Shown here in pieces: positions 3,501 to 53,957 of a DNA stretch of 64,000 bases (within the stretch, counting starts at the first letter, position 1; each line of letters begins with the position of its first letter). The DNA comes from a bacterium. Lineage in GTDB: Bacteria > Joyebacterota > Joyebacteria > Joyebacterales > Joyebacteraceae. A program made the position numbers and the translations under genes. The notes beneath the pieces were generated by a model. That model was not told where the DNA came from and did not search any database. It worked only from the letters and a program-made list of their open reading frames with translations. The stretch spans positions 5,109-69,108 of the forward strand of contig JAPEKQ010000004.1 of the NCBI GenBank assembly GCA_029990205.1, read 5' to 3'.

Positions 3501-6065
3501 GGTCACGTCGAGGCCGTCGATGCCCGAACGAAGATAGATGCTCGTCCACATCTCGTTGAACGTGCAGTCCGTGATCGAGAAGTCACTCAGAGACAGGCTG
3601 TTGGGCGCGAAGATGCCGATGTTGCGCGTGTACACGCCAAGGGACGCAACAGACGCGTCAAACTCGCAGTCCGTGACCGTCAGACCGGCGAAGTCTCCCA
3701 TGAGGTGCACACCGTAGGTGTTCGGACCTGCGCCCGCGCCGAGGTTCGGGAAGTTCACCCGGGTCAGCGTCAGGTCGGCGCTCGAGTTGACCTGGATGCC
3801 CTCGGTCAACTCAGCCGGGTCGCTGATGGCCAGGTCCGAGATCGTGACGTCGTCAGCCGTCACATCGATGACCGGGTAGGCGCCAGGCTCGATCAGCGTC
3901 GCTGTCTCACCGGCCCCGATCAGACTGAGGGACTTGTCGATGAGGAGCTGCTCGGGGTAGGTACCGGCTGCCACATTGATCGTTGCGCCGGAGGTCGCTG
4001 CGTCGATCGCGTCCTGGATCGAGTCCTTCGTACCGAGCGGCATGGGCGACGTTCCCGGAGGCGCCGCGAACCACGGGCTGTAGTCCACGTTGTCCGTGAC
4101 CGCGTCACCAGCGCGTCCGGTTGTCGGACCGTCGGCGTCGTCCCACCAGTTGAGTTCAGCGTCGATGACCAACCCGTTGGTCGGCGTCCCGACGACCTGC
4201 ACTCCGTAATGTGCGAGAGGGTTGCCGAGGTGGCCATTGCCGTAGATGGCGTTGCCGGAACCGTTGATATCCGTGGCGCAGTCGTAGCAGGCATACTGGC
4301 CGCTAGAGGGAGGACTCTCGAACTGCGGGTTCCAGTAGTTCCCCTCGAGGTCCAGCATGATCCCGTTCCAGCCGTTGTCGTAGATCGCATTGTCATCGAT
4401 GAAGATGCTGTCGTTCTTGGGTCCCATGTAGATGCCGCACTTCTGATTGTCGTGGATGTCGTTGCCCACGATGGTCAGGTTGACAGGACCGTATGCGGTC
4501 AGCGGGTCGGAGACCTTGTCCGACGAGCCTCTGATCAGCTGGATGCCGTGTCCGTACTTCAGGAAGTCCGGGTCGTCACCCGGCAGACCGGTGCATCCGT
4601 AGATGTCGTTGTTGCTGATAACAAGGTCGGCGTAACCGCCGGCGGTCTCGATTCCCGCCCTGTGCGAACCGTAGATCTCGTTGTCGTCGATGACGGTTCC
4701 CGCCATAGACGCGGGGCCGGGGGCCCCGTAGGCGTAGTACGACGTCCACAGGAAGACGTTGTCGCCGTTGCCCTTGCAGTCGAAGATCTTGTTGTGTGAG
4801 AAGCTGCTGCTCTCGATACCGTCGTCACCGTACGGATGGTTCACGAGGTAGAGCCCCATGCGACCGTGTGTCCCGTCCTGGCTCACAACGTTCGTATTGG
4901 GTCCGACGATGTTGTTCTCGAACACGATGTTCTCGATGACGCCGGTGTGAGCGTAGACGCGGACGAGAGACGTGTTCTTGTTCGCCTCCGCCGCCAGCTC
5001 CTGCACGATGAAGCCCTTGAATGTCACGTCGCTCACATCGTAGATGTCGACGATGGCCGTGTAGCTTCCGGCCGGGTCGGGATGGCTGATGATCGTCTCA
5101 ACGCCCGGATCCCATGCGTAGTCTGCAGGTACCGTGTAGCCGTTCTTGTTGAGCGCGTGCGTCGCTCCGAGCATCGTCACCGGCTTCTCAACGAGGATCT
5201 CCTCGACATAGTGGCCGGCCGCGACATTGACGGTCCCGCCGTCCAGCACGGCATCGACGCCGTTCTGGATCAGGTCGAAGTGCGTGATGCCCCAGCCGGG
5301 AGTCGCCGACGTGAAGTCATCATCGACCCACACCTCGGGCGGAGCCGCAGGCGTCAGCGTCACCTGGTAGATGCCGCCGTCCCCAGCGATGATCTCGACA
5401 TCGAAGCCGCCGAACTGAAGCGGGATAGCGTCGCTGCCCCACGTCCAGTCCATGTCCCACCAGCCTGCGCCGGCGCCATGCGCGTAGCAGTCACCATCGT
5501 TGGCGTCCGGATCCGTCGGAAGCGTCCCCGTGTACGAGCCGACATCGTTCTCCGACGCGTACATGTTCGTCCAGTCCATCAGGCCGGACATCGGCGTTCC
5601 CTGATGCACGGACTTGTACTGAAGAGCCCAGGTCGTCCCGGTCAGCACGAGCTCGTAGTTGTAGTAGTCCGCGACATCCGGGTTCCAGAAGCCGCCCCAG
5701 GGCGGGCTCCCGGTTCCATCGTCCGGATAACCATCGTGAGGGTCCGACGTGCCGTACCCGATGGTGTACGTGTCGGTTCCGGAGCAGTTCCACGCACCCG
5801 TCCCGTAATACCCCTCGACGAATGCGCAACCGCCCGTCTTGGCATAGACATCGAATCCCCCGGCGGTGGAAATGGCTTCACCACCGCCGCCGACCGCGTA
5901 CCACGAGCCGGCTACGGCGTCGATCGTTCCTGTGTAGACGCCACCACCGGCGTCCGTCAGTGTTCCCTCGAACTCCATCGTGCTGCTGCCAACGGAGTTG
6001 GCCGAAGCGGGCGCAGCGATGATGATCGAGAGAATCAGCGCGAGTACCAATGCACTGGTCCGCAT
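537..6065 (-). CDS. Giant secreted protein of 1842 aa with right-handed parallel beta-helix (pectate-lyase-like) repeats and a C-terminal T9SS sorting domain.
   Basis: Start moved to the internal ATG at 6065 (MRTSALVLALILSIIIAAPASA, signal peptide), preceded by AGGAGGAG. Many NxxTFT/ISGNTF/VTGNTF beta-helix turn motifs. The C-terminus PNPFNPVTTVGYHLPSESRVTIRVFDVAGRVVTTLVDG...GSGVYFCTME...K is a FlgD Ig-like / Por-secretion tail. Confidence 0.85.
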   Translation of the reverse strand: MRTSALVLALILSIIIAAPASANSVGSSTMEFEGTLTDAGGGVYTGTIDAVAGSWYAVGGGGEAISTAGGFDVYAKTGGCAFVEGYYGTGAWNCSGTDTYTIGYGTSDPHDGYPDDGTGSPPWGGFWNPDVADYYNYELVLTGTTWALQYKSVHQGTPMSGLMDWTNMYASENDVGSYTGTLPTDPDANDGDCYAHGAGAGWWDMDWTWGSDAIPLQFGGFDVEIIAGDGGIYQVTLTPAAPPEVWVDDDFTSATPGWGITHFDLIQNGVDAVLDGGTVNVAAGHYVEEILVEKPVTMLGATHALNKNGYTVPADYAWDPGVETIISHPDPAGSYTAIVDIYDVSDVTFKGFIVQELAAEANKNTSLVRVYAHTGVIENIVFENNIVGPNTNVVSQDGTHGRMGLYLVNHPYGDDGIESSSFSHNKIFDCKGNGDNVFLWTSYYAYGAPGPASMAGTVIDDNEIYGSHRAGIETAGGYADLVISNNDIYGCTGLPGDDPDFLKYGHGIQLIRGSSDKVSDPLTAYGPVNLTIVGNDIHDNQKCGIYMGPKNDSIFIDDNAIYDNGWNGIMLDLEGNYWNPQFESPPSSGQYACYDCATDINGSGNAIYGNGHLGNPLAHYGVQVVGTPTNGLVIDAELNWWDDADGPTTGRAGDAVTDNVDYSPWFAAPPGTSPMPLGTKDSIQDAIDAATSGATINVAAGTYPEQLLIDKSLSLIGAGETATLIEPGAYPVIDVTADDVTISDLAISDPAELTEGIQVNSSADLTLTRVNFPNLGAGAGPNTYGVHLMGDFAGLTVTDCEFDASVASLGVYTRNIGIFAPNSLSLSDFSITDCTFNEMWTSIYLRSGIDGLDVTGCAFGPVDPADYTACVAGLYIGDGDDDDFDLRNISVTGNTFTEYGRGVYVWNYGANSTVENFVISGNTFTNTGWSAAIRFIFGLNGMEDYSIDGLDINNNTFTQDTDVGAYVGMIDLRTYDATLLACDISVTDNVMTFTGAPYADAMYGIGFTVGGDGFYNTTVARNGVDGGGTGGAGTMAAAGMKISHYADSYTWAHDLDIDILSNAVKGFDHALSVYDIIGASYGGLPAGTDVSLSYNSLLGDLYGVRNDDGVAVDAEGNWWGDATGPYHSSNTGGLGCEVSDFVDFDPWIGKAGSENIVCVPDDIELNDTDDDETISVDYLGGASGLIYGVSVTFTWGADVSMDGVAIGDIFPGVAGNDFFTHYGDIGVGSTTASHTVDWTLLGNQAGVTGPATLFTIDLSAAGCGSDDISITSVLFRDNANQPLSGVYASGASIEVDTEVPAVATLSVDNPDNPYFDNWARDGNDLVIEATVTDACGDLDDVTVVANLSTLLDGGGTAVAPSTYATGTATWNLDDADLGADGAQVVRVTVTDLLGNTSYDEITVNVDNTLPVAVTDLAAAPGHNKADLTWTDSPTTYDANFHEYVLRSNAWGDAGYPTYPLAGTPAYPTDAGDGDLVDENVTGGSYGATYASDGSERSILYYGVFARDKAGNYGPAGTGDRCTNYWLGDVAGALGGGVGGYNGRVNDADINILGGTYGVSTGGLGWEPECNVGPTDDNSRVGVPVPDGIVSFEDLMIFAMNYDVVAPRIVPFLAEPSVGGLALALNEADRSSDGVLSLALRLEGNLGEIKGLSTELEFDGLEFIAAGLSDEMSAPVADVFFWSDATSRSTQIDLAVLGTDVTIGGSGDVAVLTFQIVDEAYTVDFSSATLRGAANDELTADLEGLSYEGIPASFKLVRNTPNPFNPVTTVGYHLPSESRVTIRVFDVAGRVVTTLVDGVVEPGRHTVVWNGTNEYGESVGSGVYFCTMETPEYRGSHKMTLLK

Positions 6066-6299
6066 GCTCTTCTCCTCCTGGGCATGTGCGAGTAACCTCG
6101 AATGACGCGACTGCAGCGGCCCGCTCGTGACGCTCACGCGTCGACCGCCTTGCACCTCCCGCAGTGCTCAGCTTGTCATCGCTCCTCCTTCGCCGCTCCG
6201 AAGTCGCTGAACTCCGCTCTTGACGGGCCAGCTCGGTGCGTGTACATTCCCGAAGCACAAGAGCGGACATGCTCACGCCTCACGGTGTGATGCAGCCCC

Positions 6300-6479
6300 G
6301 CTTCTTGGCCGGGCGGCTGGACTGGGTGCCAACCTATCCTCCAGTCGCCCTTGTTATCGTTTCCATGCTGTGTTCTGGATCTCTCTCCACGTCCGCGGCG
6401 TTCCCCATCCTCACTGCCCGCCCCCCCACCCAGCTGCGAGACTGGGCGGGAGAGGCAGGCGTTTCCCGAGGGAGGAAAC
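6300..6479 (-). promoter_or_regulatory. Conserved structured 5' leader, copy 1. This is the 5'-most roughly 180 nt of a roughly 415-nt 5' UTR of the giant gene. It is a candidate cis-regulatory RNA or sRNA.
   Basis: About 75% identical to 15282-15455. At the inferred 5' end there is a GUUUCC-ucccucg-GGAAAC hairpin (6461-6479 on plus). A second hairpin, CCCAG-cugcgaga-CUGGG, has two covarying pairs in the other copy. G-tracts (GGGUGGGGGGGCGGGCAG...GGGG) are conserved. Confidence 0.55.
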
Positions 6480-6485
6480 ACTGTC

Positions 6486-6514
6486 ATTATACTGCCCGTC
6501 GCGAGCTATGTCAA
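6486..6514 (-). promoter_or_regulatory. Perfect sigma70 consensus promoter TTGACA-17 bp-TATAAT, copy 1.
   Basis: The minus strand reads TTGACAtagctcgcgacgggcagTATAATgacagtG. The -35 box is at 6514..6509 and the -10 box at 6491..6486. An AT-rich region lies upstream and conserved ATGTGCTTGTC / TGCAGTTAG boxes sit 40-90 bp further upstream. Confidence 0.7.
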
Positions 6515-6640
6515 TATTGATTGAACCACCATGAAACTTCACTCACTACACTACAGACATCTAACTGCAATAGATGGACAAGCACATAGGATGCATTTTG
6601 TCTAGTTCGAACACCCTTACTGACTGACCACCAGACAAAG

Positions 6641-6671
6641 ACGCCGACCCCCGCCATGAAGGTAAGGGTCG
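6641..6671 (-). terminator. Terminator hairpin after the GH5 gene (GCCGACCC-15 nt loop-GGGTCGGC, followed by GUCUUUGUCU).
   Basis: 8-bp GC stem about 37 nt past the stop at 6708, followed by a U-rich stretch on the transcribed strand. Confidence 0.5.
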
Positions 6672-6707
6672 GCGCTATTCTGGGCGTGCTTCACGGCGCG
6701 CGAGTGC

Positions 6708-8318
6708 TCAACGCGCAGCACGGATGTAGACGAGCTTGCACACGGCCTGCGCTGACTCGCTCCTGACAATGATGAAGTACACACCCGATGGCATGTTCGC
6801 ATCTGCACGGGGCCATGACAGGCAAAGGCGCTTCTCGCGCGCGCGACAACTCTCAACCACTCGGCCGCGCACGTCGACGATGTCAACACGACGACCTGCG
6901 TCCCGCTGCGGGAACTCGGCGGTGATCGTCGCGGGTCCGAGTGAGGGAGACGGAGAGACACTGAGAGATCCGCGACGCTCGTCGACACCCGGATCATCAT
7001 CCACCGATGTACCCAGCGCGATTCGACTCATCTCGTACGCATGTTCCGCCAGCACGGACAGCGTCGTCGTGTCATCGTCGTAGATGCTGTACCACCCCTG
7101 ACACTCGTGTGGCGGGTCGCCCACCCATGGGTCGCCAGGACTCCAGTGACCACCGGCGGGAACAAGTGGCCGTCCCTCCCCCGCCCAGGCCCAGACGTTG
7201 TCACCACACGCCGGCCCTCCACTCGCCGCTGATACCTCCACGAGTCCGTACAACAGACCGAGGAGCGAGTTCCGCCAGCTCGCGTCTCCCGACGGGTCGA
7301 ACGAACCGCCATCACGAGCGAGCCCGAACTCTTCGAGAACCAACGGTTTGTTGAGGAACTGCGCGTTGGCAATATGTGCCGAGAGGTAATCCTCTGCGGC
7401 TGCCGAGGCGGCCGGGAAGGTCGCCTCCGGATCGGACGGGTCAAACCACTCCCAGTTCTGGGGCCAGATGTGAACGGTTGCGTAATCGATGTCGGGACCG
7501 TCGTGGTTGTCGATGAAATCGAGCCCGTTCCACGATGGCCATGGCGTGTCTCCCTCACACCCGGTCGTCACCAGATGGTTCCCGTCGAGCCCCTTGATGT
7601 AGGCAGCGGTGTCGTCCAGCCAGGTATTGAATGCGGCTGCGTTGTTGTGGAAGCCGCGGGGCTCGTTGGCCAGTTCCCACGCCATGATCGTCGGCTCGTC
7701 TCTATAATAGAGGCCCGTGTACGGGTTGAGCCGCCCTGTGAGAAATGCGATGTGGTCCCTCAGGTCCTGCATCGCATCCGCATTCGAGTAGAAGTCGGAC
7801 GCGTAGTCCTGGTATGCATTCCAGTCCCCGCCTGGCTCCGGAGGAGGATACGGCACCGGACCGCCGCCGTTCCAACTCACGTACTGGGCCATGCCGCCGG
7901 ACCAGTGCCAGAAGTTCGTGACGCAGGCGACCGCCCTCATCCCCCGCTCATCCATCTCGCTGAGGAGGTAGTCGAGACCGTCGAGCACGTCCGGATCGTA
8001 CACCCCCGGCGCGGTCTGGAGCGGCGGCACGATGCGCCACGGTTCGGTGTCAGGTCCCTCGCTTCCGACCATGATGCGGAGGTTCGTCACGCCGAGCGAA
8101 CGCAACGTGTCGAGCTCGCGGCACAGGCGCTCGCGGTCGCCCCCTGTGCCCGCAGAACCAAGGTTCATCCCATACCAGTAGTTGACGCCGGCGTACAGGT
8201 ACGGCTCCCCGTTGAGCTCGAGCATGGTCCCTTCGGCCTCGACGAACCCCACGTTGTCGCCGGAGCACAGGCAGGCCATCGCCAACCAGACCAGCAGAGC
8301 AACACAGATGTATCTCAC
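6708..8318 (-). CDS. Secreted glycoside hydrolase family 5 enzyme (beta-mannanase-like) with a T9SS C-terminal sorting domain.
   Basis: Signal peptide MRYICVALLVWLAMACLCSG on a GTG start. GH5 acid/base motif WELANEPR and nucleophile motif LVLEEFG. C-terminal ...MPSGVYFIIVRSESAQAVCKLVYIRAAR tail. Confidence 0.8.
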   Translation of the reverse strand: MRYICVALLVWLAMACLCSGDNVGFVEAEGTMLELNGEPYLYAGVNYWYGMNLGSAGTGGDRERLCRELDTLRSLGVTNLRIMVGSEGPDTEPWRIVPPLQTAPGVYDPDVLDGLDYLLSEMDERGMRAVACVTNFWHWSGGMAQYVSWNGGGPVPYPPPEPGGDWNAYQDYASDFYSNADAMQDLRDHIAFLTGRLNPYTGLYYRDEPTIMAWELANEPRGFHNNAAAFNTWLDDTAAYIKGLDGNHLVTTGCEGDTPWPSWNGLDFIDNHDGPDIDYATVHIWPQNWEWFDPSDPEATFPAASAAAEDYLSAHIANAQFLNKPLVLEEFGLARDGGSFDPSGDASWRNSLLGLLYGLVEVSAASGGPACGDNVWAWAGEGRPLVPAGGHWSPGDPWVGDPPHECQGWYSIYDDDTTTLSVLAEHAYEMSRIALGTSVDDDPGVDERRGSLSVSPSPSLGPATITAEFPQRDAGRRVDIVDVRGRVVESCRAREKRLCLSWPRADANMPSGVYFIIVRSESAQAVCKLVYIRAAR

Positions 8319-8407: not shown

Positions 8408-9019
8408 TTACCTGTACATCGCCTTGATCTGAGACCACGTGCTCGGAGCGACCGGCAGTGCCAGATCGCACTCGACGCTGATCCAGTCGAAGTACATCTG
8501 CCCGTAGGTGGACCAGCCGGACCAATGGCTCGCCGTGGAAACGAAGTAGAGCACACAGGGACCGCACATGCAGACGTCCTGAACCGTCGTGATGTGCCAC
8601 TGAAGCTCGGTGTTGAGCTCGTCGCCCGGATAGCTGTACACAAGCGTGCCCGGAGGTGAAGCGCCCATGTCGTAGACATAGAGATCGAACGCATCGACGG
8701 CCTGGCCTTCGAGATGCCTGAGCGTGATGCACCTCGGGTTGACATCGGGCTCCGTGCCGAAGTCGAGGAGGATGAGCGCCGCGATGTCGCCGTCTCCGAG
8801 CGACTCGGGACAGTCGATGCCCCGGCAGACCACAACGTCCCCGTACGGCCCCGGGGGATCGTGGTGATCACCGTACTGGACATCGCCCCAACCGACCATG
8901 TTGTGACCAAGCTCTGACGCAGGCACTCCAATGTCGACCATATCCATCACATCGGCCGACACTGGTACAACGACCACGGTAGCAAGCAATGCTATGAGGA
9001 TGGCGAGGAATCGTCTCAT
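8408..9019 (-). CDS. Small cysteine-rich secreted hypothetical protein (about 200 aa).
   Basis: Start at the ATG at 9019 (MRRFLAILIALLATVVVVPVSA) with a GGGAGGTG Shine-Dalgarno sequence. No recognisable domain. Confidence 0.6.
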   Translation of the reverse strand: MRRFLAILIALLATVVVVPVSADVMDMVDIGVPASELGHNMVGWGDVQYGDHHDPPGPYGDVVVCRGIDCPESLGDGDIAALILLDFGTEPDVNPRCITLRHLEGQAVDAFDLYVYDMGASPPGTLVYSYPGDELNTELQWHITTVQDVCMCGPCVLYFVSTASHWSGWSTYGQMYFDWISVECDLALPVAPSTWSQIKAMYR

Positions 9020-9073
9020 GACAACACCTCCCGTCTTCTCAACAGACCTGGCGGGGCGCACATGCGTGGGCCC

Positions 9074-9667
9074 CTACTCCTTCTCTCTCGACGACCATCC
9101 GGCGACGCCGACCACGTCTTCCGTGAGCATCTCGACCCCGAAGGCTTCCGCGTGGCCACTCACCTCCAGGAAGAGACTCTGCTCACCGCATTTCCCGTTG
9201 CCCTCGAGAAACACATCGGCCGCATCGACCTGCCGTTCGCTGACGAGCTTGCCGTCCGGGGTGAGAAGTCGGCACCGCGCGGTCGAGTTCGCGAGCTGCT
9301 GCTCGCGCCCCTTGGGGAGTGTTAGACGCACGATGACACCCCACTTCACGTCGTTCGATGTCACAACGATCTCCGCGGCCGCCACGCGCGGGGCAGGGTC
9401 CTCGACCGAGGTGGTCTGTACGCCGGCCATGTAGCGCGGATTCGGGTCGAACGGGCTCGCGAATCGAACCTTGACGGACCTGGGTATGCTGACGCCGACT
9501 CCCGCGGTAGCACTGAGAGGCTCGCCCGACGCCCACTCCTGGCCGATGCCGGGAAGGCAGACGAGGGTGACCGCCAGCATCGGCACCAGGAGGCCTGCGA
9601 GCGACCGCCGCCCACCGGGCCCAGCCCGAGTCCGGGACGGCATCCGCTGTCTGATACCACTGATCAT
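9074..9667 (-). CDS. Hypothetical secreted protein or lipoprotein (about 197 aa).
   Basis: An AAGGAGAG Shine-Dalgarno sequence lies 6 nt upstream of the ATG at 9667. The hydrophobic segment LAGLLVPMLAVTLVCLPG may be a lipobox. Confidence 0.55.
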   Translation of the reverse strand: MISGIRQRMPSRTRAGPGGRRSLAGLLVPMLAVTLVCLPGIGQEWASGEPLSATAGVGVSIPRSVKVRFASPFDPNPRYMAGVQTTSVEDPAPRVAAAEIVVTSNDVKWGVIVRLTLPKGREQQLANSTARCRLLTPDGKLVSERQVDAADVFLEGNGKCGEQSLFLEVSGHAEAFGVEMLTEDVVGVAGWSSREKE

Positions 9668-9722
9668 GTGCACCTCTCCTTCCGCTTGGCATCACCACCG
9701 GTCACTGCTGGTCGATGTCCTC

Positions 9723-11375
9723 TCACTCGAGGAGACCGGCGAGCTCCATCGGATCGATCATAGCGTGCGGCGTGACGAGAACGAGCATCTCGCTCTGCTC
9801 CCGCTCGATGGTCGTGTGTCCGAACAGCGCGCCAAGAACTGGGATGCGGCCGAGCAACGGGATACGGTTCTCCTTCGTACGTTCGAACTCCGAGAGCAAC
9901 CCGCCGATCAGGATCGACTCACCGTTCCCGACGCACGCCCGCGTCTCGATCTCTCGCACGCTCGTGACGGGCAGATCGTTCACGCCCGACGCGCGGACGT
10001 CGCTGACCTCAACGAAGATGTCGGTCGTGATGTCGGACGACTCGCCCACGTATGGCGTGATCCTGAGCGTGATCCCCGTCGCGATCTTCTGGAGCGTGTA
10101 GTAGGCATAGCTGACCGACCCGCTCAGCAGCGAGTAGTACGCCTCGGTCCCGACACGGATCCGTGCCTCCTGACCGTCGAGCGTGGCAAGGCGCGGGTTG
10201 GCGCGGACGTTCGCCGCCCCGTTCGCCTCGAGCGCCCGCACGGCGGCGCCGATGTTCGTGACAGCGTCGACGCCGTCCAGACCGGTATCGGTGAGCATCC
10301 CGATGAAGGACGAGTCGAGCATGGCCGGGGCGAGCTTGGCGAGACGGAACGTCGCGCCTCCTTCGCTCCCCAGGACCTCCCAGTCGATGCCCCACTCGCG
10401 CGTGACGTCGCTGTTCACCTCGACGACAAGCGCCTCGATGGTCACCTGACGAGGCGGTCGATCGATCGCCGCGACGTCCCGAAGGAACGCGCTCGTCACC
10501 TCCGGCGGCGCCGTCAGCGAGAGGATGTTCCCGCCGGCTGGGTCGACCCGCACGTACCGCTCGTACGACGGCGGCAACAGCCTCGCAATCTCCTCGGCCA
10601 GGAGGTGACGCGGTCGGATCTCGACGGTCGCAGCCAGCAACATCGACCCCGAGTCCCTCGGATCGGTGACGCCGACGAGGTAGTACCCGTCCATCCACCG
10701 ATACCCCAGCCCGAGCGGCACGGCCAGATGACTCAGACACTGCTCGAGCGGGACGTCGTCGAACTCCGCGGTGACCAGTCCCCGGACGCCCTTCGCCGCG
10801 AAGATGGGAATGCGGGTCTGCGCCGACACGTCTGCCAGTACCTGGAGGATATCGGTCTCGTAGAACATGTTGGTGACGCGCGCGTTCTCGCTGTCGTTGA
10901 CGCTTCCGGCGACCCCGGCGCCTGTCCCGGGCGTGCGGGCCGGACCGACCTCTGCCACGGAGGCCCTGCCGCACGCCACAGGCCGGTGCGCATCCGCGAT
11001 CGCGTCGAGTTCCATCCGACCGGGAAGCACCGACCACTTCCGGGGGTAGTTCTCCCGAAGCAGATGGAAGCTCAGCGCGGCCTTCGATGTATCACCGCCG
11101 GCCAGCTCGGCCTCGCCAAGGAGATAGAGCACATCGGGCATGACCCGGTACGGTGTGTTGTCCTCGAGGATCCCGCGCAGAAGCCTTGACGTCTCCGCGT
11201 AATCGCCCTGGCGATATCGCGACGCCGCGGCGCTGAGATCCGCCTCGACCGTCCCGCCGTGTCCCAGGAGCATCTCCGCCTCGTCGTGCAGCGGCGTCTG
11301 CGGAGCGCATCCCAGGAGGCAGGCGACCGCGAACACTGCGAGCGTGGAAGCTGTGTGTGTGCGCCGGGCATTCAT
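9723..11375 (-). CDS. Outer-membrane secretin of the PilQ/GspD family. It is a lipoprotein with an N-terminal TPR-like region and an STN domain.
   Basis: Lipobox ACLLGC. STN-like VTNMFYETDILQVLADVSAQTRIPI. Secretin C-domain motifs NPRLATLDGQEARIRVG, ITPYV, VREIETRACVGNGESILIGGL, ENRIPLLGRIPVLGALFG, LVTPHA. Confidence 0.85.
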   Translation of the reverse strand: MNARRTHTASTLAVFAVACLLGCAPQTPLHDEAEMLLGHGGTVEADLSAAASRYRQGDYAETSRLLRGILEDNTPYRVMPDVLYLLGEAELAGGDTSKAALSFHLLRENYPRKWSVLPGRMELDAIADAHRPVACGRASVAEVGPARTPGTGAGVAGSVNDSENARVTNMFYETDILQVLADVSAQTRIPIFAAKGVRGLVTAEFDDVPLEQCLSHLAVPLGLGYRWMDGYYLVGVTDPRDSGSMLLAATVEIRPRHLLAEEIARLLPPSYERYVRVDPAGGNILSLTAPPEVTSAFLRDVAAIDRPPRQVTIEALVVEVNSDVTREWGIDWEVLGSEGGATFRLAKLAPAMLDSSFIGMLTDTGLDGVDAVTNIGAAVRALEANGAANVRANPRLATLDGQEARIRVGTEAYYSLLSGSVSYAYYTLQKIATGITLRITPYVGESSDITTDIFVEVSDVRASGVNDLPVTSVREIETRACVGNGESILIGGLLSEFERTKENRIPLLGRIPVLGALFGHTTIEREQSEMLVLVTPHAMIDPMELAGLLE

Positions 11376-13003
11376 CGGAGTCCCTCCGGCACGACCTCAG
11401 TGCTCGTGAACGAGGCGTCCGCCGTGAGCGGGGCCTCCTCGTCTCCGTTCTGCTCGAGATCGACCTTGACCGTGAAGATGCCCTCGGCGACGAGCGGCAG
11501 TGACATCCGGAACTTCCTCTCGCCCCGCGGCATCACGCGCTCCCAGCTCTTCTTCCCGATGGCCATCTCGGCAACGAGATCGCCCTGCTCGGAGTGGAGC
11601 GATACGCGTCCGCGCACCTCGCCGACACCGTCGCCCTCGTTCGCGATCGTGAGCACGGCGCTCCCGGGATTCGACTCTGGGTGCGAACGGACAAGATCGA
11701 GACTCTCGACCCGGAGCGAGGCGCGACCTCCCCCTCTCGGCTTGATGATGATAAGGGCCCCGGCGTCGTAGACCGTCCGCCACTCGCCGGACTCCTCGTG
11801 AGCTCGCCCCACGAACCGCACACCTCGTGTCACCGTCTCGTCGAACTCAGCATCACGGTCCATGCTCACCGTGGCCCGGACGGCCGAGCTGACACGCGGC
11901 CCGACGACGAGCGAGTCCGGCGCAACCTCGACGGCCAGTCCATCTATGCGGGCCGGTGAATCGGCGTAGGTCCATCGTCCGTCGGCTTCCAGTCTCGCAT
12001 CGCCCACGACGACGTCGAGCCGAATCTCCTCGTCACCCATGTTGCTGACTCGAATCGGGACTGATCGCACGGCGCCTGGAGCGAGGTCGATCTCGTGAAC
12101 GGGCTGTTCTATCCAGAGATCGGTCCCGACCTCCGACTTCGCTCCGCTGACTTCCGCCGCTGACGTTGTTCGCTCCATTCCGGCCACTGAGAGGACGAAC
12201 TCGTTCCTCGACTCGCGCCGCTCACCCAGTTCGAGCCTCCCCACGGTTCGATATGTTCCGTGGACGAGCCGCGGCGCGTGCGCCCTGAGAGTGATGCTCT
12301 GTCCCGGATAGAGCTCGAACGGCCGACCGTCGCTCCGGTACGGCAGCTCGACTCGTTCGGGGAAGCCTCCCGACTCGGGGTACATCAGTACATCGCCACG
12401 GAGCTCGCTCACCCATACCCCGGTGTTCCGAACCTCGATGACCAGTTCGCGTCCGCCGTCCCTCGACCAGCCGAGCCCGATTCCCTCTATGCCGAGTTCC
12501 AGCGGTCCGCTCGACCGGACGCGCACGAGGACTTCGACGTTGACAGTCGGGACGACCGTCGCTGAGAGCTGGGCCGTGGGGCTGTCGGGACGGAGGTTGA
12601 TCACGAGAAACGCCGAGTACTCGCCGAACGCGTCCTCGGGAACACGAACCGTGACGGGCACGTCTCGCTGTTCGACTCCATCGAGCGCGAGTTCGGGCTC
12701 GACGACGATCCAGTCGGCGGCGGAGCGTGCACCCCCGCCGACCGCGATGGCCTCCTTGTGGCCGACCTGTGACTGTTTGAGATCCTGGATCGCGATGTCG
12801 AAGTGAGCGCGCCTGCCGGGCATGCTCCCGGCGATCCGGAAGCTCCCGTCCCAGGTCTGGCCCGGTGTCGCATCGGCTATGAGTTTGAGCGGTCCGATAC
12901 CAATGCCACCCTCGCGGACCTCTGCCTCCTGGGCGACGACGCCGGTCGAGAGCGCCGCGATCAGGAGCAGTACAAGGCAAAGAGAGAGATGGGATGACTT
13001 CAC
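11372..13003 (-). CDS. Secreted protein of 543 aa built from about four beta-sandwich repeat modules. Its stop overlaps the secretin start in an ATGA arrangement.
   Basis: GTG start with a strong AAGGAGGAGGG Shine-Dalgarno sequence. Signal peptide MKSSHLSLCLVLLLIAALSTGVVAQ. Internal repeats of about 130 aa. Function unknown. Confidence 0.65.
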   Translation of the reverse strand: MKSSHLSLCLVLLLIAALSTGVVAQEAEVREGGIGIGPLKLIADATPGQTWDGSFRIAGSMPGRRAHFDIAIQDLKQSQVGHKEAIAVGGGARSAADWIVVEPELALDGVEQRDVPVTVRVPEDAFGEYSAFLVINLRPDSPTAQLSATVVPTVNVEVLVRVRSSGPLELGIEGIGLGWSRDGGRELVIEVRNTGVWVSELRGDVLMYPESGGFPERVELPYRSDGRPFELYPGQSITLRAHAPRLVHGTYRTVGRLELGERRESRNEFVLSVAGMERTTSAAEVSGAKSEVGTDLWIEQPVHEIDLAPGAVRSVPIRVSNMGDEEIRLDVVVGDARLEADGRWTYADSPARIDGLAVEVAPDSLVVGPRVSSAVRATVSMDRDAEFDETVTRGVRFVGRAHEESGEWRTVYDAGALIIIKPRGGGRASLRVESLDLVRSHPESNPGSAVLTIANEGDGVGEVRGRVSLHSEQGDLVAEMAIGKKSWERVMPRGERKFRMSLPLVAEGIFTVKVDLEQNGDEEAPLTADASFTSTEVVPEGLR

Positions 13004-13039: not shown

Positions 13040-13069
13040 GGAGGCGCCGGGACGAAACCCGGCGCCTCC
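13040..13069 (-). terminator. Perfect 12-bp GC hairpin (GGAGGCGCCGGG-acgaaa-CCCGGCGCCTCC) between two genes.
   Basis: It lies between the stop at 13081 and the Shine-Dalgarno/GTG start of the repeat protein at 13003. It could be a terminator or an attenuator. Confidence 0.5.
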
Positions 13070-13080
13070 GGAACCTCCAC

Positions 13081-13815
13081 CTACGGACTCGTGAACAACA
13101 CATTCACCACCGTGCTGTAGTCGCCGCCCGCATCAAGCATCCCGTTACGGTGGATGCGGGCCAGGAACTTCATAGTACCCTCGACACCCGGGCAGAGCGG
13201 CCCGAGCACATAGTGTGTCGCCGGGGGCTCGCAGGGAATCGCCTGCTGCATGGGGTAGACGCCGTAGACCGGGTCGTTGTAGCCAAGCACGCCCGGACTG
13301 TCCAGATGCAGGTAGGTGCCCCAACCGTCGTTCGGGATCGTGCCCACGCCGGTCCAGACATCCTCCACCATCAGAGGAGCAGCGCACATCGTCAGCCAGG
13401 TCGGGATGTAGCAATCCCCGCAGTCCGGATCGACCGCGTGGAGGTCGCCGTTCACGGTGACATCCATCGACAGCGGATTGTTGGACCTGAAGAAGATCAC
13501 CGCGCCGTCGAATGACTCGTAGTACATGCCCATGTTGCTGGTGTAGTACCCACCGCCGGCCCAGGGGTTCAGCGGGCCCTTCCCGTCCGGGTCCGGACAG
13601 GCGGAGTAGCCGAGCCCCTCCAGCTGGGCGCAGTACCAGTCAGCGTTGTCGTCGAAGACGATGTCGACGTCCTGCCACTCGATCTGGACATAGCAGTTCA
13701 GCATGAGGTCGATCGTGATGTCACCGCTGGGGCTGCCGTCCCACACTGTGTCGTACGCCGCAGCCGAAAGCGTGAGCGCCACGACAGCCATGATTGCCAC
13801 GATAACGCGCAGCAT
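13081..13815 (-). CDS. Cysteine-rich secreted hypothetical protein (244 aa).
   Basis: ATG at 13815 (MLRVIVAIMAVVALTLSAAA) preceded by AAGGAGAG. No recognisable domain. Confidence 0.6.
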   Translation of the reverse strand: MLRVIVAIMAVVALTLSAAAYDTVWDGSPSGDITIDLMLNCYVQIEWQDVDIVFDDNADWYCAQLEGLGYSACPDPDGKGPLNPWAGGGYYTSNMGMYYESFDGAVIFFRSNNPLSMDVTVNGDLHAVDPDCGDCYIPTWLTMCAAPLMVEDVWTGVGTIPNDGWGTYLHLDSPGVLGYNDPVYGVYPMQQAIPCEPPATHYVLGPLCPGVEGTMKFLARIHRNGMLDAGGDYSTVVNVLFTSP

Positions 13816-14120: not shown

Positions 14121-15155
14121 CTACTGCGGCGACCCGACCAGGTGTAGCTCGCTGATGTACTCGCCCGCGACATCGGTGACGGTCACCTCAAGCGCCATCC
14201 GGAATCTCGCGGAGAGAACACCCCGTTCATCGTATCCAGACATCAGACAATTGCTGTCGCCCACAAGGGTCCATGGACCGGGCTCCCCACCGGCGTCAAG
14301 GACCGCCCACTCGACTCGCTCAAGAGCGATCTGGTCCTCGTCGGAGACGAAGGGCGTCCCCTCGAGCAGCAGCACCCACTGCTCTTCGTTCGTCGCGACA
14401 ACGACCTCCAGGTCAGGCTCCACGTAGTACCGGCCTGACCCGGGTCCCGTTTCGATGTCGAACTCCGTCTCGGAGGTCATGACCATCGTGAGGGACCCGA
14501 CGTCCATGATCACTGGAACCGTCAGCCGCGGTCCGAAGGCGCTGCTGAGACTCGCGGCGCTACCAGTCACGACCCGCAGTGCGCCGGGGTGCTCGATCTC
14601 CGAGTAGTGGTCCTCGGGCAGGACAACGGGCGTGAGATGGAGAAGTCCCTGATAGAGACCCGCTTCGTCCGTCCACTCGGGACGCGCCTGCACTTCGAGC
14701 CACAGGTTCTCCGCGGGCGCAGGACCCTGCCCGCGGGCAACGATGACCCCACCAGCCATGCTCACGAACTCTCCGCCCGTATCCGCTGACCGCACCATCA
14801 GGCAACCACCGTCGATGGGTCCGCCAGGACCCGCGGTGGGCTCATACTCGACCCGGACCGCCCAGTTCGGGAGCGGCGACGCTACGCTGAATGCCAGCGA
14901 ACCCAGAAGAGCCGGCTGCACAGGAATCCCACCTTGGGGCGGCAGCACGACCTCATCGTCCAGAGACAGGAACTCCGCATCCGTCGTGATCCACACCATC
15001 CCACCCGACTGCACCGGCGTACCCGCCTGGGACGCGGGGTTCTCCTCCAACCCTCGAGCCGTACAGACTCCTGCCGCCACCAACACGAGGAAGAGCACCA
15101 CCAGGTGTCGACAGACACGTCTCAGCAGTGCTCTCATAGCAACGGTTCCAGACAT
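14121..15155 (-). CDS. Secreted hypothetical protein of about 344 aa, sitting behind the second copy of the promoter-leader module.
   Basis: Start set at the ATG at 15155 (MSGTVAMRALLRRVCRHLVVLFLVLVAAGVCTA) with a GGTGAGG Shine-Dalgarno-like sequence. ATG 15137 is an alternative. Confidence 0.55.
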   Translation of the reverse strand: MSGTVAMRALLRRVCRHLVVLFLVLVAAGVCTARGLEENPASQAGTPVQSGGMVWITTDAEFLSLDDEVVLPPQGGIPVQPALLGSLAFSVASPLPNWAVRVEYEPTAGPGGPIDGGCLMVRSADTGGEFVSMAGGVIVARGQGPAPAENLWLEVQARPEWTDEAGLYQGLLHLTPVVLPEDHYSEIEHPGALRVVTGSAASLSSAFGPRLTVPVIMDVGSLTMVMTSETEFDIETGPGSGRYYVEPDLEVVVATNEEQWVLLLEGTPFVSDEDQIALERVEWAVLDAGGEPGPWTLVGDSNCLMSGYDERGVLSARFRMALEVTVTDVAGEYISELHLVGSPQ

Positions 15156-15281
15156 ATTCCTCACCTTTCCCGCTTGCTCCGCTACCTCCATGCAATAATT
15201 CCACTTGCCTTCTCGGCTCCATGCAGGCACATTGTACGAACAAGGAGCGCGGCCCTGGTCCTTGCGGACCGGGTGAGCCAT

Positions 15282-15455
15282 GCTTCTGCCCGGGCGACTG
15301 GATGGCTGCGAATCCATCACCAGTCGCCCGCTTTTATGCTATCCGCATGTGATCGTGTTTCTCTCCACGCACGCGATGTTCCCTGCCCATCTTGCCCGCC
15401 CCCCGTCCGGCTGCGAGACCGGACGGAAGGGCAGGCGTTTCCCGAGGGAGGAAAC
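15282..15455 (-). promoter_or_regulatory. Conserved structured 5' leader, copy 2 (candidate cis-regulatory RNA).
   Basis: About 75% identical to 6300-6479. It has the same GUUUCC-ucccucg-GGAAAC hairpin (15437-15455). Its second hairpin, GUCCGG-cugcgaga-CCGGAC, differs from copy 1 at two base pairs, and both changes keep the pairing. Confidence 0.55.
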
Positions 15456-15461
15456 GGAGTC

Positions 15462-15490
15462 ATTATACTGCGTGACACCCGATATGTCAA
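15462..15490 (-). promoter_or_regulatory. Perfect sigma70 consensus promoter TTGACA-17-TATAAT, copy 2.
   Basis: The minus strand reads TTGACAtatcgggtgtcacgcagTATAATgactcc. An AT-rich tract and conserved boxes lie upstream. Confidence 0.7.
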
Positions 15491-38612: not shown

Positions 38613-39500
38613 CTACCAGACGAACATCGCCGAGAGCCGATAGAGACTCCCGATGCGCCGCTCGGAGAGCAGCGCCACGTCGACCAGGAGGTTCTTCGAC
38701 TTGATGCCGACTCCCGCCGTGATCCGGTCGCGGTTCATCCCCGCCCGGAGCGCGAACGCGTCGTAGAACCAGACCTCGGTGCCGATGTTGATGGATGACT
38801 TCTCGTCGTAGTACGCCGGCGCCTCGCGCGGAACGCGCCACTCCGCCGACATGAGCATCACACCGCGGAACAGATACGACCCGCCGATCCGCATCTCGGC
38901 GTAAACCGGGTCGATGTCGTCCGGCGCGGTCGTGTCGAGAAGCTGAAGCTCCGGCTCGCCGAGGTTCCGGAGGACGCCGCCGGCGCTCCAACTCCCTCGG
39001 CGGTAGAGCACTCCGAGATCGGCCGCGAACGCCGCGTCGCCGTCCCCGCTGAAGGCGGGGTCGTTGTAGTACTCGTATCCGGGCGCGTCGATCGAGAACC
39101 GCTTGAGCGCGACGCCCGCAGCGAGCCCCTCGACAAAACACCCGTTGAAACCGTATCCGGCGATGAGCGTGTCCTCGTTGTAGAGGTCCTCCGCCCCGGT
39201 CCGCATCCACCCGGCGGCCGCGCCGTGCGTCCCGTTCCCGTACCCGGCGATCGCCGCGTCCTCGGACACGCCGTCCACACCGTAGACGCTGGTGCGCATC
39301 CCGAACACCTGGATCTGCTCGAGCGTCGCGAGACCCGCGGGATTCCAGTGCAGCGCCGTGACATCATCCGCGACGGCGACGAACGCGCCCCCCATGCCCA
39401 TCGCCCGCGCGCCGAGTTCGGTCTCAACGAAGTTGGCCGAGACTGTCGCCGGTATGAGCGCGAGCGCCGCGCAGAGGACGAGCGTTGCTGTTCTCTTCAT
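38613..39500 (-). CDS. FadL-fold outer-membrane beta-barrel of the T9SS-associated PorV/PorQ/PorP(SprF) type.
   Basis: Signal peptide MKRTATLVLCAALALIPATVSA. N-terminal motif GARAMGMGGAFVAVADDVTALHWNPAGLA is characteristic of the FadL/PorV-like family. C-terminus ends in aromatic ...MFVW. Located 9 bp downstream of a T9SS cargo gene. Confidence 0.6.
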   Translation of the reverse strand: MKRTATLVLCAALALIPATVSANFVETELGARAMGMGGAFVAVADDVTALHWNPAGLATLEQIQVFGMRTSVYGVDGVSEDAAIAGYGNGTHGAAAGWMRTGAEDLYNEDTLIAGYGFNGCFVEGLAAGVALKRFSIDAPGYEYYNDPAFSGDGDAAFAADLGVLYRRGSWSAGGVLRNLGEPELQLLDTTAPDDIDPVYAEMRIGGSYLFRGVMLMSAEWRVPREAPAYYDEKSSINIGTEVWFYDAFALRAGMNRDRITAGVGIKSKNLLVDVALLSERRIGSLYRLSAMFVW

Positions 39501-39509
39501 GTGCGCTCC

Positions 39510-51455: not shown

Positions 51456-51477
51456 GGTCCACTGCTCCTTCGCATTC

Positions 51478-51504
51478 AGACACCCGGCCATTGCCCGGGT
51501 GTCT
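51478..51504 (-). other. Perfect 10-bp inverted repeat AGACACCCGG-7 nt-CCGGGTGTCT at the 5' end of the transferase gene.
   Basis: The upstream candidate ATG sits in the 7-nt loop. It could be an operator, an RNA hairpin or the terminator of the upstream gene. Confidence 0.4.
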
Positions 51505-51620
51505 CGCACGGGCCGAGCGCGGTCCGAATCACCCGCGACAGGCCCTCATGCCCCACATATGTAAGATAGCACGCAGCATGGGCGTGTAAAGACGGAAGGC
51601 AGCCAGGGGCTGGTCGATGG

Positions 51621-53682: not shown

Positions 53683-53875
53683 GATGATGTTCCTTTCGAT
53701 GAAGCTGTGCCCACGAAGCCACGCTGTGGAGTCGTTCTCATGAATGAAGTGCTGCAAGTGTTCTACCAGCTTGAAGGCCGTCAGGCAACATTCAACGTCG
53801 CCCGTCGCGCCGGAACGCGCGCGGCAGAGCATCGTCTGGCGTGACGGGTCGTGCGGTCCTGCGCGCGGCAGCGCG

Positions 53876-53904
53876 TTGACAGCGGCGGCACGAGAACATA
53901 GGCT
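53876..53904 (+). promoter_or_regulatory. Candidate promoter TTGACA-17-TAGGCT for the plus-strand fused glycosyltransferase gene.
   Basis: Perfect -35 box. The -10 box matches TAnnnT. It lies 54 nt upstream of the ATG at 53958, in the only divergent intergenic region of the window. Confidence 0.45.
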
Positions 53905-53957
53905 GTGCTCAGGCACGGTAAGGGCGCTGTGTCGCGATACGCTCGACGGGGCAACTG

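What the first reader, a model, noticed from the sequence alone, without database searches (positions are those of the whole stretch)
8408..13003. Orphan lipoprotein secretin operon with no cognate assembly-ATPase genes, embedded among secreted-cargo genes
The run of minus-strand genes at 11372-13003, 9723-11375, 9074-9667 and 8408-9019 (and possibly 6708-8318) is closely spaced. The first two overlap in an ATGA. The gene at 9723-11375 is a bona fide secretin (STN domain, N domains, secretin C domain) and is itself a lipoprotein with TPR-like N-terminal repeats. Yet the window holds no T2SS/T4P ATPase, platform or pseudopilin genes. The first gene of the run instead encodes a GTG-started, strongly Shine-Dalgarno-driven secreted protein made of about four beta-sandwich repeats, which could be a pilotin, scaffold or novel partner. 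Two small Cys-rich secreted proteins and a T9SS-tailed GH5 follow. This may be a minimal or novel secretin-based export or uptake module, or a secretin co-opted by a T9SS-using organism.
Basis: partly seen in the sequence, partly recalled or inferred. Interest (0 to 1): 0.65.

Follow-up and report, generated by a model that had tools for sequence, protein, structure and literature searches.

The report
Secretin paired with chaperone-like partner
An uncultured bacterium (Candidatus Eisenbacteria) carries a strongly promoted operon in which an outer-membrane secretin channel is paired, not with the usual ATP-driven pilus or secretion motor, but with a doubled chaperone-like protein related to Gram-positive WxL-interacting proteins and with several unknown secreted proteins; the same pairing recurs across several uncultured phyla and may be an undescribed, motor-free way of putting proteins or fibres on the cell surface.

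Summary
Genes at 11372-13003, 9723-11375, 9074-9667, 8408-9019 and 6708-8318 (minus strand) are real, the first two overlap in ATGA, and 9723-11375 is a true secretin with a lipobox and TPR N-terminus. The 64-kb window has no T2SS/T4P ATPase, platform or prepilin gene.

The operon is larger than reported. It starts at a perfect sigma-70 consensus promoter (15462-15490) and includes two more secreted proteins, A (14121-15155) and B (13081-13815). B is followed by a strong hairpin that is structurally conserved in relatives.

The 543-aa partner (C) models confidently as four beta-sandwich domains. Its wider family matches Pfam WxLIP_PGBD/DUF916 (56 of 89 members). Its fold matches WxLIP and chaperone-usher chaperones. 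B weakly resembles donor-strand pilins.

A C-like gene lies next to this secretin subfamily in 8 of 9 informative, mostly non-syntenic neighbourhoods from Eisenbacteria and unassigned metagenome contigs. None carries an ATPase gene.

Best reading (about 0.45): a self-contained Sec, periplasmic chaperone, secretin route that builds a surface fibre or complex without a dedicated ATPase.

Main rival (about 0.25): the secretin serves a type IV filament machine encoded elsewhere. One related locus has divergent pilMNO next door.

I found no description in the literature I searched.

The parts
15462..15490 (-). Perfect sigma-70 consensus promoter (TTGACA-17-TATAAT) in an AT-rich island. It is followed by a roughly 300-nt leader and is the proposed operon start.
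   Evidence: There are only 2 perfect matches in 64 kb and 0 in 100 shuffles. Equivalent perfect promoters sit at the module start in L004, L012 and L015. The leader has no Rfam match.
14121..15155 (-). Gene A: a 344-aa Sec-signal protein with two beta-rich repeats, each ending in W-x-D-x-(A/P)-G-x-Y-x-G-x-L-x-L. This is the proposed 'large' surface subunit or adhesin.
   Evidence: Orthologues occur in L010 and L011. The C-terminal domain is homologous to single-domain 160-172-aa proteins in L015 (hhalign 97%, E=1e-10). No Pfam, NCBIfam or PDB sequence hit was found.
13081..13815 (-). Gene B: a 244-aa Sec-signal, 8-Cys beta-sandwich protein. This is the proposed abundant 'small' or major subunit.
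13040..13069 (-). GC-rich 12-bp hairpin directly after gene B with no U-tract. Proposed attenuator or 3'-end stabiliser that raises B output relative to the downstream genes.
   Evidence: z = -5.2, 0 of 200 shuffles as stable. A hairpin at the same position but with a different stem sequence occurs in L001, L002, L003, L004, L006, L008, L010 and L011.
11372..13003 (-). Gene C: a 543-aa Sec-signal protein of four beta-sandwich domains, equal to 2 x (DUF916-like + DUF3324-like). It has no TM anchor and an invariant C-terminal FTSTExxPEGLR tail. Proposed periplasmic chaperone or adaptor for the secretin.
9723..11375 (-). Gene D: a 550-aa lipoprotein secretin with LLGC lipobox, TPR, STN/N0-like region, N domain and secretin domain. 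It is translationally coupled to C through the ATGA overlap.
   Evidence: It scores below every NCBIfam equivalog cut-off: GspD 179 vs 351, SctC 149 vs 238, PilQ 147 vs 284. Subfamily homologues are listed.
9074..9667 (-). Gene E: a 197-aa Sec-signal protein. Proposed minor subunit or accessory protein.
   Evidence: Orthologues occur in the close clade and in L011 (hmmsearch 1e-7). It has weak similarity to part of A (hhalign P=5e-4). No family hit was found.
8408..9019 (-). Gene F: a 203-aa Sec-signal protein with 7 Cys, restricted to the close clade. Proposed accessory or variable component.
   Evidence: No family hit was found.
6708..8318 (-). Gene G: a GH5 (mannosidase-type) enzyme with a weak T9SS C-terminal sorting domain. 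It is the last gene before the next perfect promoter (6486-6514). It is probably co-transcribed but exported by T9SS, not by the secretin.
   Evidence: Orthologues carry PF26410. A GH5 gene is also adjacent to the secretin in the distant locus L010 and in L008. It is absent from L011-L015 and L017.

Best explanation
This is a self-contained surface-assembly module that uses a secretin without a dedicated type IV filament or T3SS motor.

Proposed path:
1. All components are exported to the periplasm by Sec. This is shown by classical signal peptides and the absence of class-III leaders.
2. C is a tandem WxLIP-like / PapD-like double two-domain protein. It binds the beta-sandwich subunits A and B, and probably E and F, by beta-strand complementation. 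This step is inferred from its homology and fold.
3. C hands the subunits to the secretin D, which is translationally coupled to C and self-piloted (inferred).
4. The subunits leave through D and form a surface fibre or complex in which B is the major component. The major-component role is inferred from the conserved hairpin after B and the consensus promoter.

No ATP source would be needed. As in chaperone-usher pili, folding and strand exchange would drive export (inferred).

The N-terminal TPR lipoprotein part of D would act as a built-in pilotin (inferred).

The likely biological role is adhesion to, or capture of, polysaccharide. This rests on the co-transcribed GH5 mannosidase, the glycan-degrading neighbourhood, and the role proposed for Gram-positive Csc/WxL clusters.
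For: - The secretin is genuine but fits no established type.
- No ATPase, platform, PilMNO or prepilin gene occurs in the 64-kb window.
- The Pfam annotation of the related neighbourhoods examined lists no T2SSE/T2SSF family. The one exception for pil genes is L017/L018/L019, which carry pilMNO.
- C-like and secretin genes are adjacent in the window clade, L010, L011, L012, L013, L014, L015 and L017. Flanking genes differ in most of these, and gene order is shuffled in L011 to B-C-D-A-E.
- C and D overlap by ATGA.
- 56 of 89 C-family members hit Pfam WxLIP_PGBD (best 1.7e-11) and 5 hit WxLIP_HBD.
- The best structural matches to B in two methods are donor-strand pilins: CsuA/B, FimG, CupE and CfaB.
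- A's domain is homologous to single-domain small proteins that sit next to a single-module 286-aa WxLIP-like gene in L015.
- A hairpin after B is conserved in structure but not in sequence across 9 loci.
- The promoter is a perfect consensus.
- WxLIP is predicted to insert a strand into WxL proteins, and the commonest WxL cluster has one WxLIP plus a small and a large WxL protein (PMC10599100; PMC9772566).
Against: - Everything is computational.
- A, B, E and F match no known family, including WxL, SCPU or fimbrial Pfam models. They also match no PDB sequence.
- No secretin is known to open without a piston, needle or phage driven from the inner membrane.
- The rest of the genome could not be searched for a trans-acting ATPase machine.
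- One related locus has pilM-pilN-pilO, and possibly pilP, divergently adjacent.
- No complex prediction (C with A/B, or C with D) could be run.
Confidence: 0.45

Rival explanations
1. The secretin is the outer-membrane gate of a type IV pilus or T2SS-like machine whose ATPase, platform and pilins are encoded elsewhere. C is a secretin-associated adaptor, pilotin or scaffold. A, B, E and F are T2SS-type folded cargo or pilus-associated adhesins.
For: - Every characterised secretin works with an inner-membrane motor (established knowledge; Denise et al. 2019, PMC6668835).
- In L017/L018/L019, pilM-pilN-pilO and a cut 199-aa gene lie divergently about 2.2 kb from the module's first gene. Both contigs end there, so no pilQ can be seen.
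- The best NCBIfam and PDB scores for D are to GspD and PilQ.
- Secretin genes are sometimes unlinked from the rest of their system.
Against: - pil genes are seen near the module in only one related genome (L017/L018/L019). The window and all other informative neighbourhoods have none.
- The invariant neighbour is C, not pilP or gspC.
- D fails all type-specific NCBIfam cut-offs and lacks AMIN domains.
- A, B, E and F have classical Sec leaders, and no prepilin motif occurs in the window or in 19 loci.
- FCB-group organisms that rely on T9SS commonly lack T2SS (general knowledge, not tested here).
Confidence: 0.25
2. The same self-contained chaperone-secretin export route operates, but the product is not a polymer. 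A, B, E and F are released or displayed as a non-filamentous glycan-binding surface complex. This would be a diderm counterpart of the Gram-positive Csc/WxL complex. C might itself travel to the surface.
For: - C is homologous to WxLIP.
- The cluster logic matches: one small protein, one large protein and a DUF916-type protein (PMC9772566).
- Csc clusters were proposed to act in plant polysaccharide use (PMC1534035).
- A GH5 mannosidase is co-located in the window clade, L008 and L010.
- B's model matches carbohydrate-binding modules almost as well as it matches pilins.
Against: - No WxL domain is detectable in A or B.
- WxLIP's TM anchor is missing from C.
- The top matches of C to chaperone-usher chaperones and of B to donor-strand pilins favour polymer assembly.
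- The hairpin after B suggests one subunit made in large excess.
Confidence: 0.2
3. The adjacency has no functional meaning. C is an unrelated Ig-repeat adhesin and the small proteins are unrelated secreted proteins that happen to flank an orphan or decaying secretin.
For: - In the close clade the whole region is syntenic, including the housekeeping flanks. Conservation there says little on its own.
- L009 shows a frameshifted C.
Against: - The C-D pairing persists at 28% (C) and 42-44% (D) identity in different genomic contexts and with reshuffled order.
- C and D overlap by ATGA.
- The promoter and hairpin architecture is shared across loci.
- Secretin motifs are intact.
Confidence: 0.05

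Closest known systems
Gram-positive WxL / Csc cell-surface clusters (small WxL + large WxL + WxLIP = DUF916-DUF3324)
   Same: - The cluster logic is shared: one small and one larger Sec-exported beta-rich protein plus a DUF916-type protein.
- There is a possible link to polysaccharide use (PMC1534035, PMC9772566, PMC10599100).
   Different: - The WxLIP-like unit is duplicated in tandem and has no C-terminal TM helix.
- No WxL domain is detectable in A or B.
- The host is a diderm, and a dedicated secretin is part of the cluster.
- Over 91% of known WxL sequences are from Firmicutes.
Chaperone-usher pili, especially archaic (Csu, CupE/SCPU) and alternative (CFA/I) classes
   Same: - The subunits are Sec-exported.
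- B's best matches are CsuA/B, FimG, CupE and CfaB.
- The operon has a subunit gene followed by a hairpin and then the assembly genes.
- No ATPase is needed.
   Different: - No usher (PF00577) is present. A secretin stands in its place.
- The chaperone-like protein is doubled and not detectably related in sequence to PapD.
- Donor-strand exchange is not demonstrated.
T2SS GspD / T4P PilQ / Tad RcpA / phage pIV secretins
   Same: - The N-domain plus secretin C-domain core is shared, with E=1e-28 to XcpQ-type GspD and 1e-17 to 1e-22 to PilQ, RcpA and pIV.
- The short N0-N-secretin layout resembles RcpA and pIV.
- Lipidation recalls self-piloting secretins.
   Different: - It scores below all type-specific cut-offs.
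- It carries an N-terminal TPR lipoprotein extension.
- It has no cis-encoded ATPase, platform, pilins or PilMNOP/GspC. The constant partner is a WxLIP-like protein.
TPR lipoprotein pilotins of T4P secretins (PilF/PilW/Tgl) and TadD/MshN
   Same: It is a TPR module on a lipoprotein associated with a secretin.
   Different: - Here the TPR module is fused to the secretin in cis.
- It has no sequence match to PilW-type models. The only NCBIfam TPR hit is YbgF-like and below cut-off.
- The pilotin function is inferred only.

Membership tests
Secretin superfamily | C-terminal secretin domain (PF00263) preceded by an N3-type ring domain | tested here: met
   PF00263 hits at E=5e-40 and 137 bits against a cut-off of 27.5. 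Residues 275-548 align with GspD N3 plus the secretin domain.
T2SS (GspD equivalog) | Score above the TIGR02517 cut-off, with cis gspC/E/F/G genes | tested here: not met
   The score is 179 bits against a cut-off of 351. No T2SSE, T2SSF or pseudopilin gene is present in 64 kb.
Type IVa pilus (PilQ) | PilQ model score, AMIN domains, a pilMNOPQ operon, and prepilins with class-III leaders | tested here: not met
   The score is 147 bits against a cut-off of 284. No AMIN hit was found. No pilMNOP and no prepilin motif is present in the window. One related locus has divergent pilMNO.
Any type IV filament system, with components in trans | A PilB/GspE/TadA-family ATPase and platform elsewhere in the same genome that depend on this secretin | not testable with these tools
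   Only 64 kb of a 146,930-bp contig is visible.
T3SS (SctC) / filamentous phage pIV | Type-specific model score, with neighbouring sct genes or phage genes (pI/Zot) | tested here: not met
   SctC scores 149 bits against a cut-off of 238. No sct or phage genes occur in the window.
Chaperone-usher pathway | Outer-membrane usher (PF00577) | tested here: not met
   The Pfam scans of the window and the precomputed Pfam annotation of the related neighbourhoods list no usher family.
Chaperone-usher pathway | Two-domain PapD-like periplasmic chaperone | tested here: inconclusive
   [not shown]
Chaperone-usher pathway | Pilins with an incomplete Ig fold completed by donor-strand exchange | tested here: inconclusive
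   [not shown]
WxL / Csc cluster | WxLIP protein (DUF916/PF06030 + DUF3324/PF11797) | tested here: met
   [not shown]
WxL / Csc cluster | Small and large proteins carrying the WxL domain (PF13731) with two W-x-L motifs | tested here: not met
   A, B, E, F and the small proteins of L010, L012-L015 and L017 give no Pfam hit at E<=10. The invariant Trp (W-x-L/V/I) and the C-terminal aromatic-x-L ... P ending in A-type domains are a resemblance only.
WxL / Csc cluster | A C-terminal TM helix anchoring WxLIP, in a monoderm host | tested here: not met
   C ends in the polar tail FTSTEVVPEGLR with no hydrophobic helix. The host encodes a secretin and T9SS-type cargo, so it is a diderm.

The most novel reading that the evidence does not exclude
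This would be a previously unrecognised secretin-dependent pathway, a 'chaperone-secretin' route. Sec-exported beta-sandwich subunits would be held by a tandem WxLIP/PapD-like periplasmic chaperone and extruded or polymerised through a dedicated self-piloting secretin, with no inner-membrane ATPase. It would be the diderm counterpart, and possibly an evolutionary relative, of Gram-positive WxL/Csc surface complexes. It would be widespread in uncultured FCB-related phyla: Eisenbacteria, Zixibacteria, Latescibacteria, Krumholzibacteriota and Aerophobetes.
Probability: 0.35. Interest if true: 0.88.

Novelty: new variant of a known kind. Interest (0 to 1): 0.72.

Why it matters
All characterised secretins are gates for machines powered from the inner membrane: T2SS, type IV and Tad pili, T3SS and filamentous phage. 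A secretin whose constant genetic partner is a chaperone-like Ig-domain protein would show that secretins have been co-opted once more, this time by an energy-independent pathway that otherwise resembles chaperone-usher assembly.

It would also give the first functional context to three things:
- a large 'dark' protein family, with 2215 clusters at 50% identity, every member whose source name was looked up labelled hypothetical;
- DUF916/WxLIP-like proteins outside Firmicutes;
- several families of unknown secreted proteins in uncultured, polysaccharide-degrading phyla.

It would also raise a testable mechanistic question: how a secretin gate opens without a piston.

If instead the secretin serves a distant type IV pilus machine, the result is still useful. 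It would define a new secretin-associated partner family.

Tried and rejected
- **Sequence searches on the small proteins and C.** Pfam (E up to 10) and NCBIfam on A, B, E and F, and Pfam on the small proteins of related loci, gave nothing. Profile searches of the A, B, C and A-domain alignments against PDB sequences gave nothing meaningful.
- **Foldseek on B against PDB.** No significant hit.
- **AFDB Foldseek for C.** The library was unavailable.
- **Rfam.** Nothing on the whole window or on the leader and hairpin region.
- **Prepilin leader regex.** Nothing in the window or in 19 loci.
- **hhalign between families.** A/B, B/E, B/F and E/F show no relationship. A/E and B/S-family are only marginal, at P about 5e-4 to 2e-3.
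- **Literature.** Searches for an orphan secretin, DUF916 plus secretin, secretin plus donor strand, and Eisenbacteria plus secretin or type IV pili found no prior description.
- **Hairpin as an intrinsic terminator.** Considered and set aside. It has no U-tract and the terminator scan does not call it.
- **GH5 enzyme as secretin cargo.** Considered and set aside. It carries a T9SS-type tail, although that hit is weak.
- **DNA-uptake (HofQ/ComE-like) role.** Considered and set aside. The scores are 81-89 bits against cut-offs of 554-598, and no competence genes were seen.

Full report
**1. What is in the sequence**

The window is about 65% GC and almost all of its genes lie on the minus strand. 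I label them as follows:
- C, 11372-13003
- D, 9723-11375
- E, 9074-9667
- F, 8408-9019
- G, 6708-8318

C starts at GTG behind AAGGAGGAGG. The C stop and the D start overlap as ATGA.

D hits Pfam Secretin at E=5e-40 and has TPR repeats at residues 50-111. It carries an LLGC lipobox. It aligns with solved GspD, PilQ, RcpA and pIV over residues 275-548. It falls well below every type-specific NCBIfam cut-off: GspD 179 vs 351 bits, SctC 149 vs 238, PilQ 147 vs 284.

Pfam does not detect STN or Secretin_N in this protein. Both are recorded for many 40-45% identical homologues.

Pfam scans of essentially every large ORF in the window found carbohydrate-active enzymes, T9SS-tailed proteins, an ABC sugar transporter, polysaccharide-synthesis genes and housekeeping genes. 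They found no T2SS/T4P ATPase, platform or PilMNO. No class-III prepilin leader is present.

**2. The unit is larger than reported**

Upstream of C lie two more genes for Sec-signal proteins: A (14121-15155) and B (13081-13815).

A perfect TTGACA-17-TATAAT promoter sits at 15462-15490 in an AT-rich island, about 300 nt ahead of A. The only other perfect match in 64 kb is at 6486-6514, just past G. None is expected by chance. This brackets A-B-C-D-E-F-G as one likely transcription unit. Perfect promoters also precede the module in L004, L012 and L015.

Directly after B there is a GC-rich hairpin with core 13040-13069 (z = -5.2). A hairpin of 12-16 bp sits at the same place, with a different stem sequence, in eight related loci. 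These include L010 and L011, whose proteins are only 25-28% identical to the window's. It has no U-tract. I read it as an attenuator or 3'-end stabiliser that raises B output relative to the assembly genes. That is an inference.

**3. Who carries it**

Close homologues of C are few (24 proteins) and come from Candidatus Eisenbacteria MAGs and unnamed MAGs. In that clade the whole region is syntenic, flanks included, so conservation there says little.

The informative evidence comes from distant secretin homologues. I examined ten further neighbourhoods. One (L016) starts at a contig edge and is uninformative.

| Locus | Gene content around the secretin |
|---|---|
| L010 | A, one unrelated gene, B, C, D, GH5 |
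| L011 | B, C, D, A, E |
| L012 | two small secreted proteins, C-like, D |
| L013 | two small secreted proteins, C-like, D |
| L014 | three small proteins, C-like, D |
| L015 | several small proteins, a single-module 286-aa WxLIP-like protein, C-like, a 193-aa gene, D |
| L017 | two small proteins, C-like, D |
| P0130 locus | a 3313-aa protein, then the secretin; no C-like gene |

Counting the window clade, 8 of 9 informative contexts have a C-like gene immediately, or one gene, upstream of this secretin subfamily. None carries an ATPase or platform gene.

Named sources of the secretin subfamily include Eisenbacteria, Krumholzibacteriota, Latescibacteria and Zixibacteria. C-like proteins also occur in Aerophobetes.

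An exhaustive profile search finds 2215 C-like clusters at E<=1e-3. Nearly all are 510-590 aa, and every member whose source name was looked up is labelled hypothetical.

**4. What C is**

The AlphaFold model is confident, with pLDDT 84.8 and pTM 0.81, and shows four beta-sandwich domains.

- other PapD-like/MSP/ASH domains.

The N and C halves are related to each other. hhalign gives 155 columns at P=4e-4 for the halves, and P=5e-5 for domain 2 against domain 4. Profile cross-matches in distant members agree.

At sequence level, 56 of 89 diverse family members hit Pfam WxLIP_PGBD (DUF916; best 1.7e-11) and 5 hit WxLIP_HBD (DUF3324). The window protein itself reaches only E=0.019.

C is therefore a tandem duplication of a WxLIP-like two-domain unit. 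It has a Sec signal and no TM anchor. Within the B-type loci it carries an invariant tail, FTSTExxPEGLR.

In Firmicutes, WxLIP is the constant partner of one small and one large WxL protein. It is predicted to insert a beta-strand into them (PMC10599100; PMC9772566).

**5. What A, B, E and F are**

None matches any Pfam or NCBIfam family or any PDB sequence.

B:
- Its model is moderate, with pLDDT 71.
- Foldseek gives nothing significant, though its top hits are again pilins: CfaB, CsuA/B, CS17 and bundling pili.
- Carbohydrate-binding modules score only slightly lower, so 'pilin-like' is tentative.
- Most of the first 20 or so mature residues of B are low-confidence in the monomer model (segments 12-25 and 32-40). 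They include a conserved alternating-hydrophobic stretch, GDITIxLxLxCYIQIxWQD. That would suit a donor strand. This is an inference.

A:
- It has two repeats, each ending in W-x-D-x-(A/P)-G-x-Y-x-G-x-L-x-L.
- Its C-terminal domain is homologous to two single-domain 160-172-aa proteins in L015 (hhalign 97%, E=1e-10). Those proteins lie directly upstream of a single-module 286-aa WxLIP-like gene. That arrangement is reminiscent of pilin-pilin-chaperone.

Other loci:
- The more distant loci use another pair of families, S and S2. S2 is S plus an extra N-terminal domain (hhalign 99.5%).
- This again gives one small and one large protein, as in WxL clusters.

E and F:
- E has an orthologue in L011.
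- F is restricted to the close clade.

**6. Mechanism**

Shown:
- all components carry Sec signals;
- D is a secretin and a probable lipoprotein;
- C is WxLIP-like with a chaperone-like fold;
- C and D are adjacent in every module locus except L015 (one gene between) and translationally coupled in the window;
- the promoter is strong and a conserved hairpin follows B;
- no motor genes are encoded in cis.

Inferred:
- C holds A and B, and probably E and F, in the periplasm by strand complementation and delivers them to D;
- the subunits leave through D and build a B-rich surface fibre or complex;
- folding and strand exchange replace ATP;
- the TPR lipoprotein N-terminus of D acts as a built-in pilotin. 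Lipidation tracks the TPR extension in D, L010 and L011 but not in the TPR-less L012.

The co-transcribed GH5 mannosidase is also adjacent to the secretin in L010 and L008. Together with the glycan-degrading neighbourhood, it suggests a role in polysaccharide adhesion or capture. The same role was proposed for Csc/WxL clusters (PMC1534035).

**7. Rivals**

The main rival is that D serves a type IV filament machine encoded elsewhere. I could not search the rest of the genome.

In L017/L018/L019, pilM-pilN-pilO and a truncated fourth gene lie divergently next to the module. Both contigs end there, so whether that cluster has its own pilQ is unknown.

Four points argue against this rival:
- pil and gsp genes are absent from the window and from every other informative context;
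- the constant partner is C;
- D does not fit the PilQ or GspD models;
- there are no prepilins.

A second rival keeps the motor-free export route but makes the product a non-filamentous glycan-binding surface complex. Chance adjacency is unlikely given the reshuffled yet conserved module.

**8. Novelty**

Full-text searches found nothing linking secretins with DUF916/WxLIP-like proteins. They found no secretin pathway without a TFF, T3SS or phage motor. Denise et al. note that secretins have been co-opted repeatedly (PMC6668835), so another co-option is plausible.

I rate the finding as a new variant of a known kind: secretin-based export with a new, conserved partner set. The categorically new reading is a chaperone-secretin pathway that works without an ATPase. 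I put it at about 0.35.

Noticed in passing
window 6486-6514 (-) and 537-6155 (-): The second of only two perfect TTGACA-17-TATAAT promoters in the window precedes a 1872-aa beta-helix protein with a FlgD_ig-type T9SS C-terminal domain. The equivalent promoter is present in L003 (7698-7726).
   Followed up: partly
window 24955-44966 (-): A large alpha-glucan utilisation cluster. It contains GDE_C, GH57 with CBM48/CBM20, two Glucodextran_C (SLH-like) proteins, an ABC sugar-binding protein with two permeases, CBM48/X25 proteins, a weak PorP/SprF-like outer-membrane protein (38613-39509), and an 1818-aa T9SS-tailed protein.
   Followed up: no
window 50139-63998: A surface-polysaccharide synthesis cluster. 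It contains GT4 enzymes, a DegT aminotransferase, a C5-epimerase-like protein, Wzy_C, Polysacc_synt, PGA_cap and an SLBB-domain protein. One 784-aa double-GT gene (53922-56276) is among the very few plus-strand genes.
   Followed up: no
window 1-64000: Almost every gene is on the minus strand. Cumulative GC skew falls almost monotonically to -1.56, consistent with one replichore arm with strong gene-strand bias.
   Followed up: no
window 15156-15461 (-): The leader between the consensus promoter and gene A is about 300 nt long and contains GC-rich palindromes. It has no Rfam match, so it may be an unknown regulatory RNA element.
   Followed up: partly
L015 1826-3692: Two small A-domain-type genes (160 and 172 aa) are followed by a single-module 286-aa WxLIP-like gene. 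This looks like a half-size version of C and a possible ancestral 'subunit-subunit-chaperone' arrangement. A 193-aa protein with no signal peptide is inserted between C-like and the secretin (6370-6951).
   Followed up: partly
L018/L019 2-3105 (-): pilM, pilN, pilO and a truncated 199-aa gene lie divergently next to the module. The module itself is bracketed by two sigma-54 response regulators. Both independent contigs stop at the same point.
   Followed up: partly
L009 2961-6260: One 1099-aa ORF joins the N-terminal 385 residues of C to a full secretin. The missing part of C is in another frame (4186-4551). This is either a frameshifted C gene or an assembly error in that MAG.
   Followed up: no
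L010 11676-15302: The GH5 next to the secretin is a 1208-aa protein with about three GH5-like segments. One segment is 65% identical to the window's GH5, far more conserved than A-D (25-44%). This hints at strong constraint or horizontal transfer.
   Followed up: no
locus of P0130 (no DNA held): A 398-aa member of the same secretin subfamily follows a 3313-aa PD40/CarboxypepD_reg protein instead of a C-like gene. This may be a different cargo arrangement for the same secretin type.
   Followed up: no
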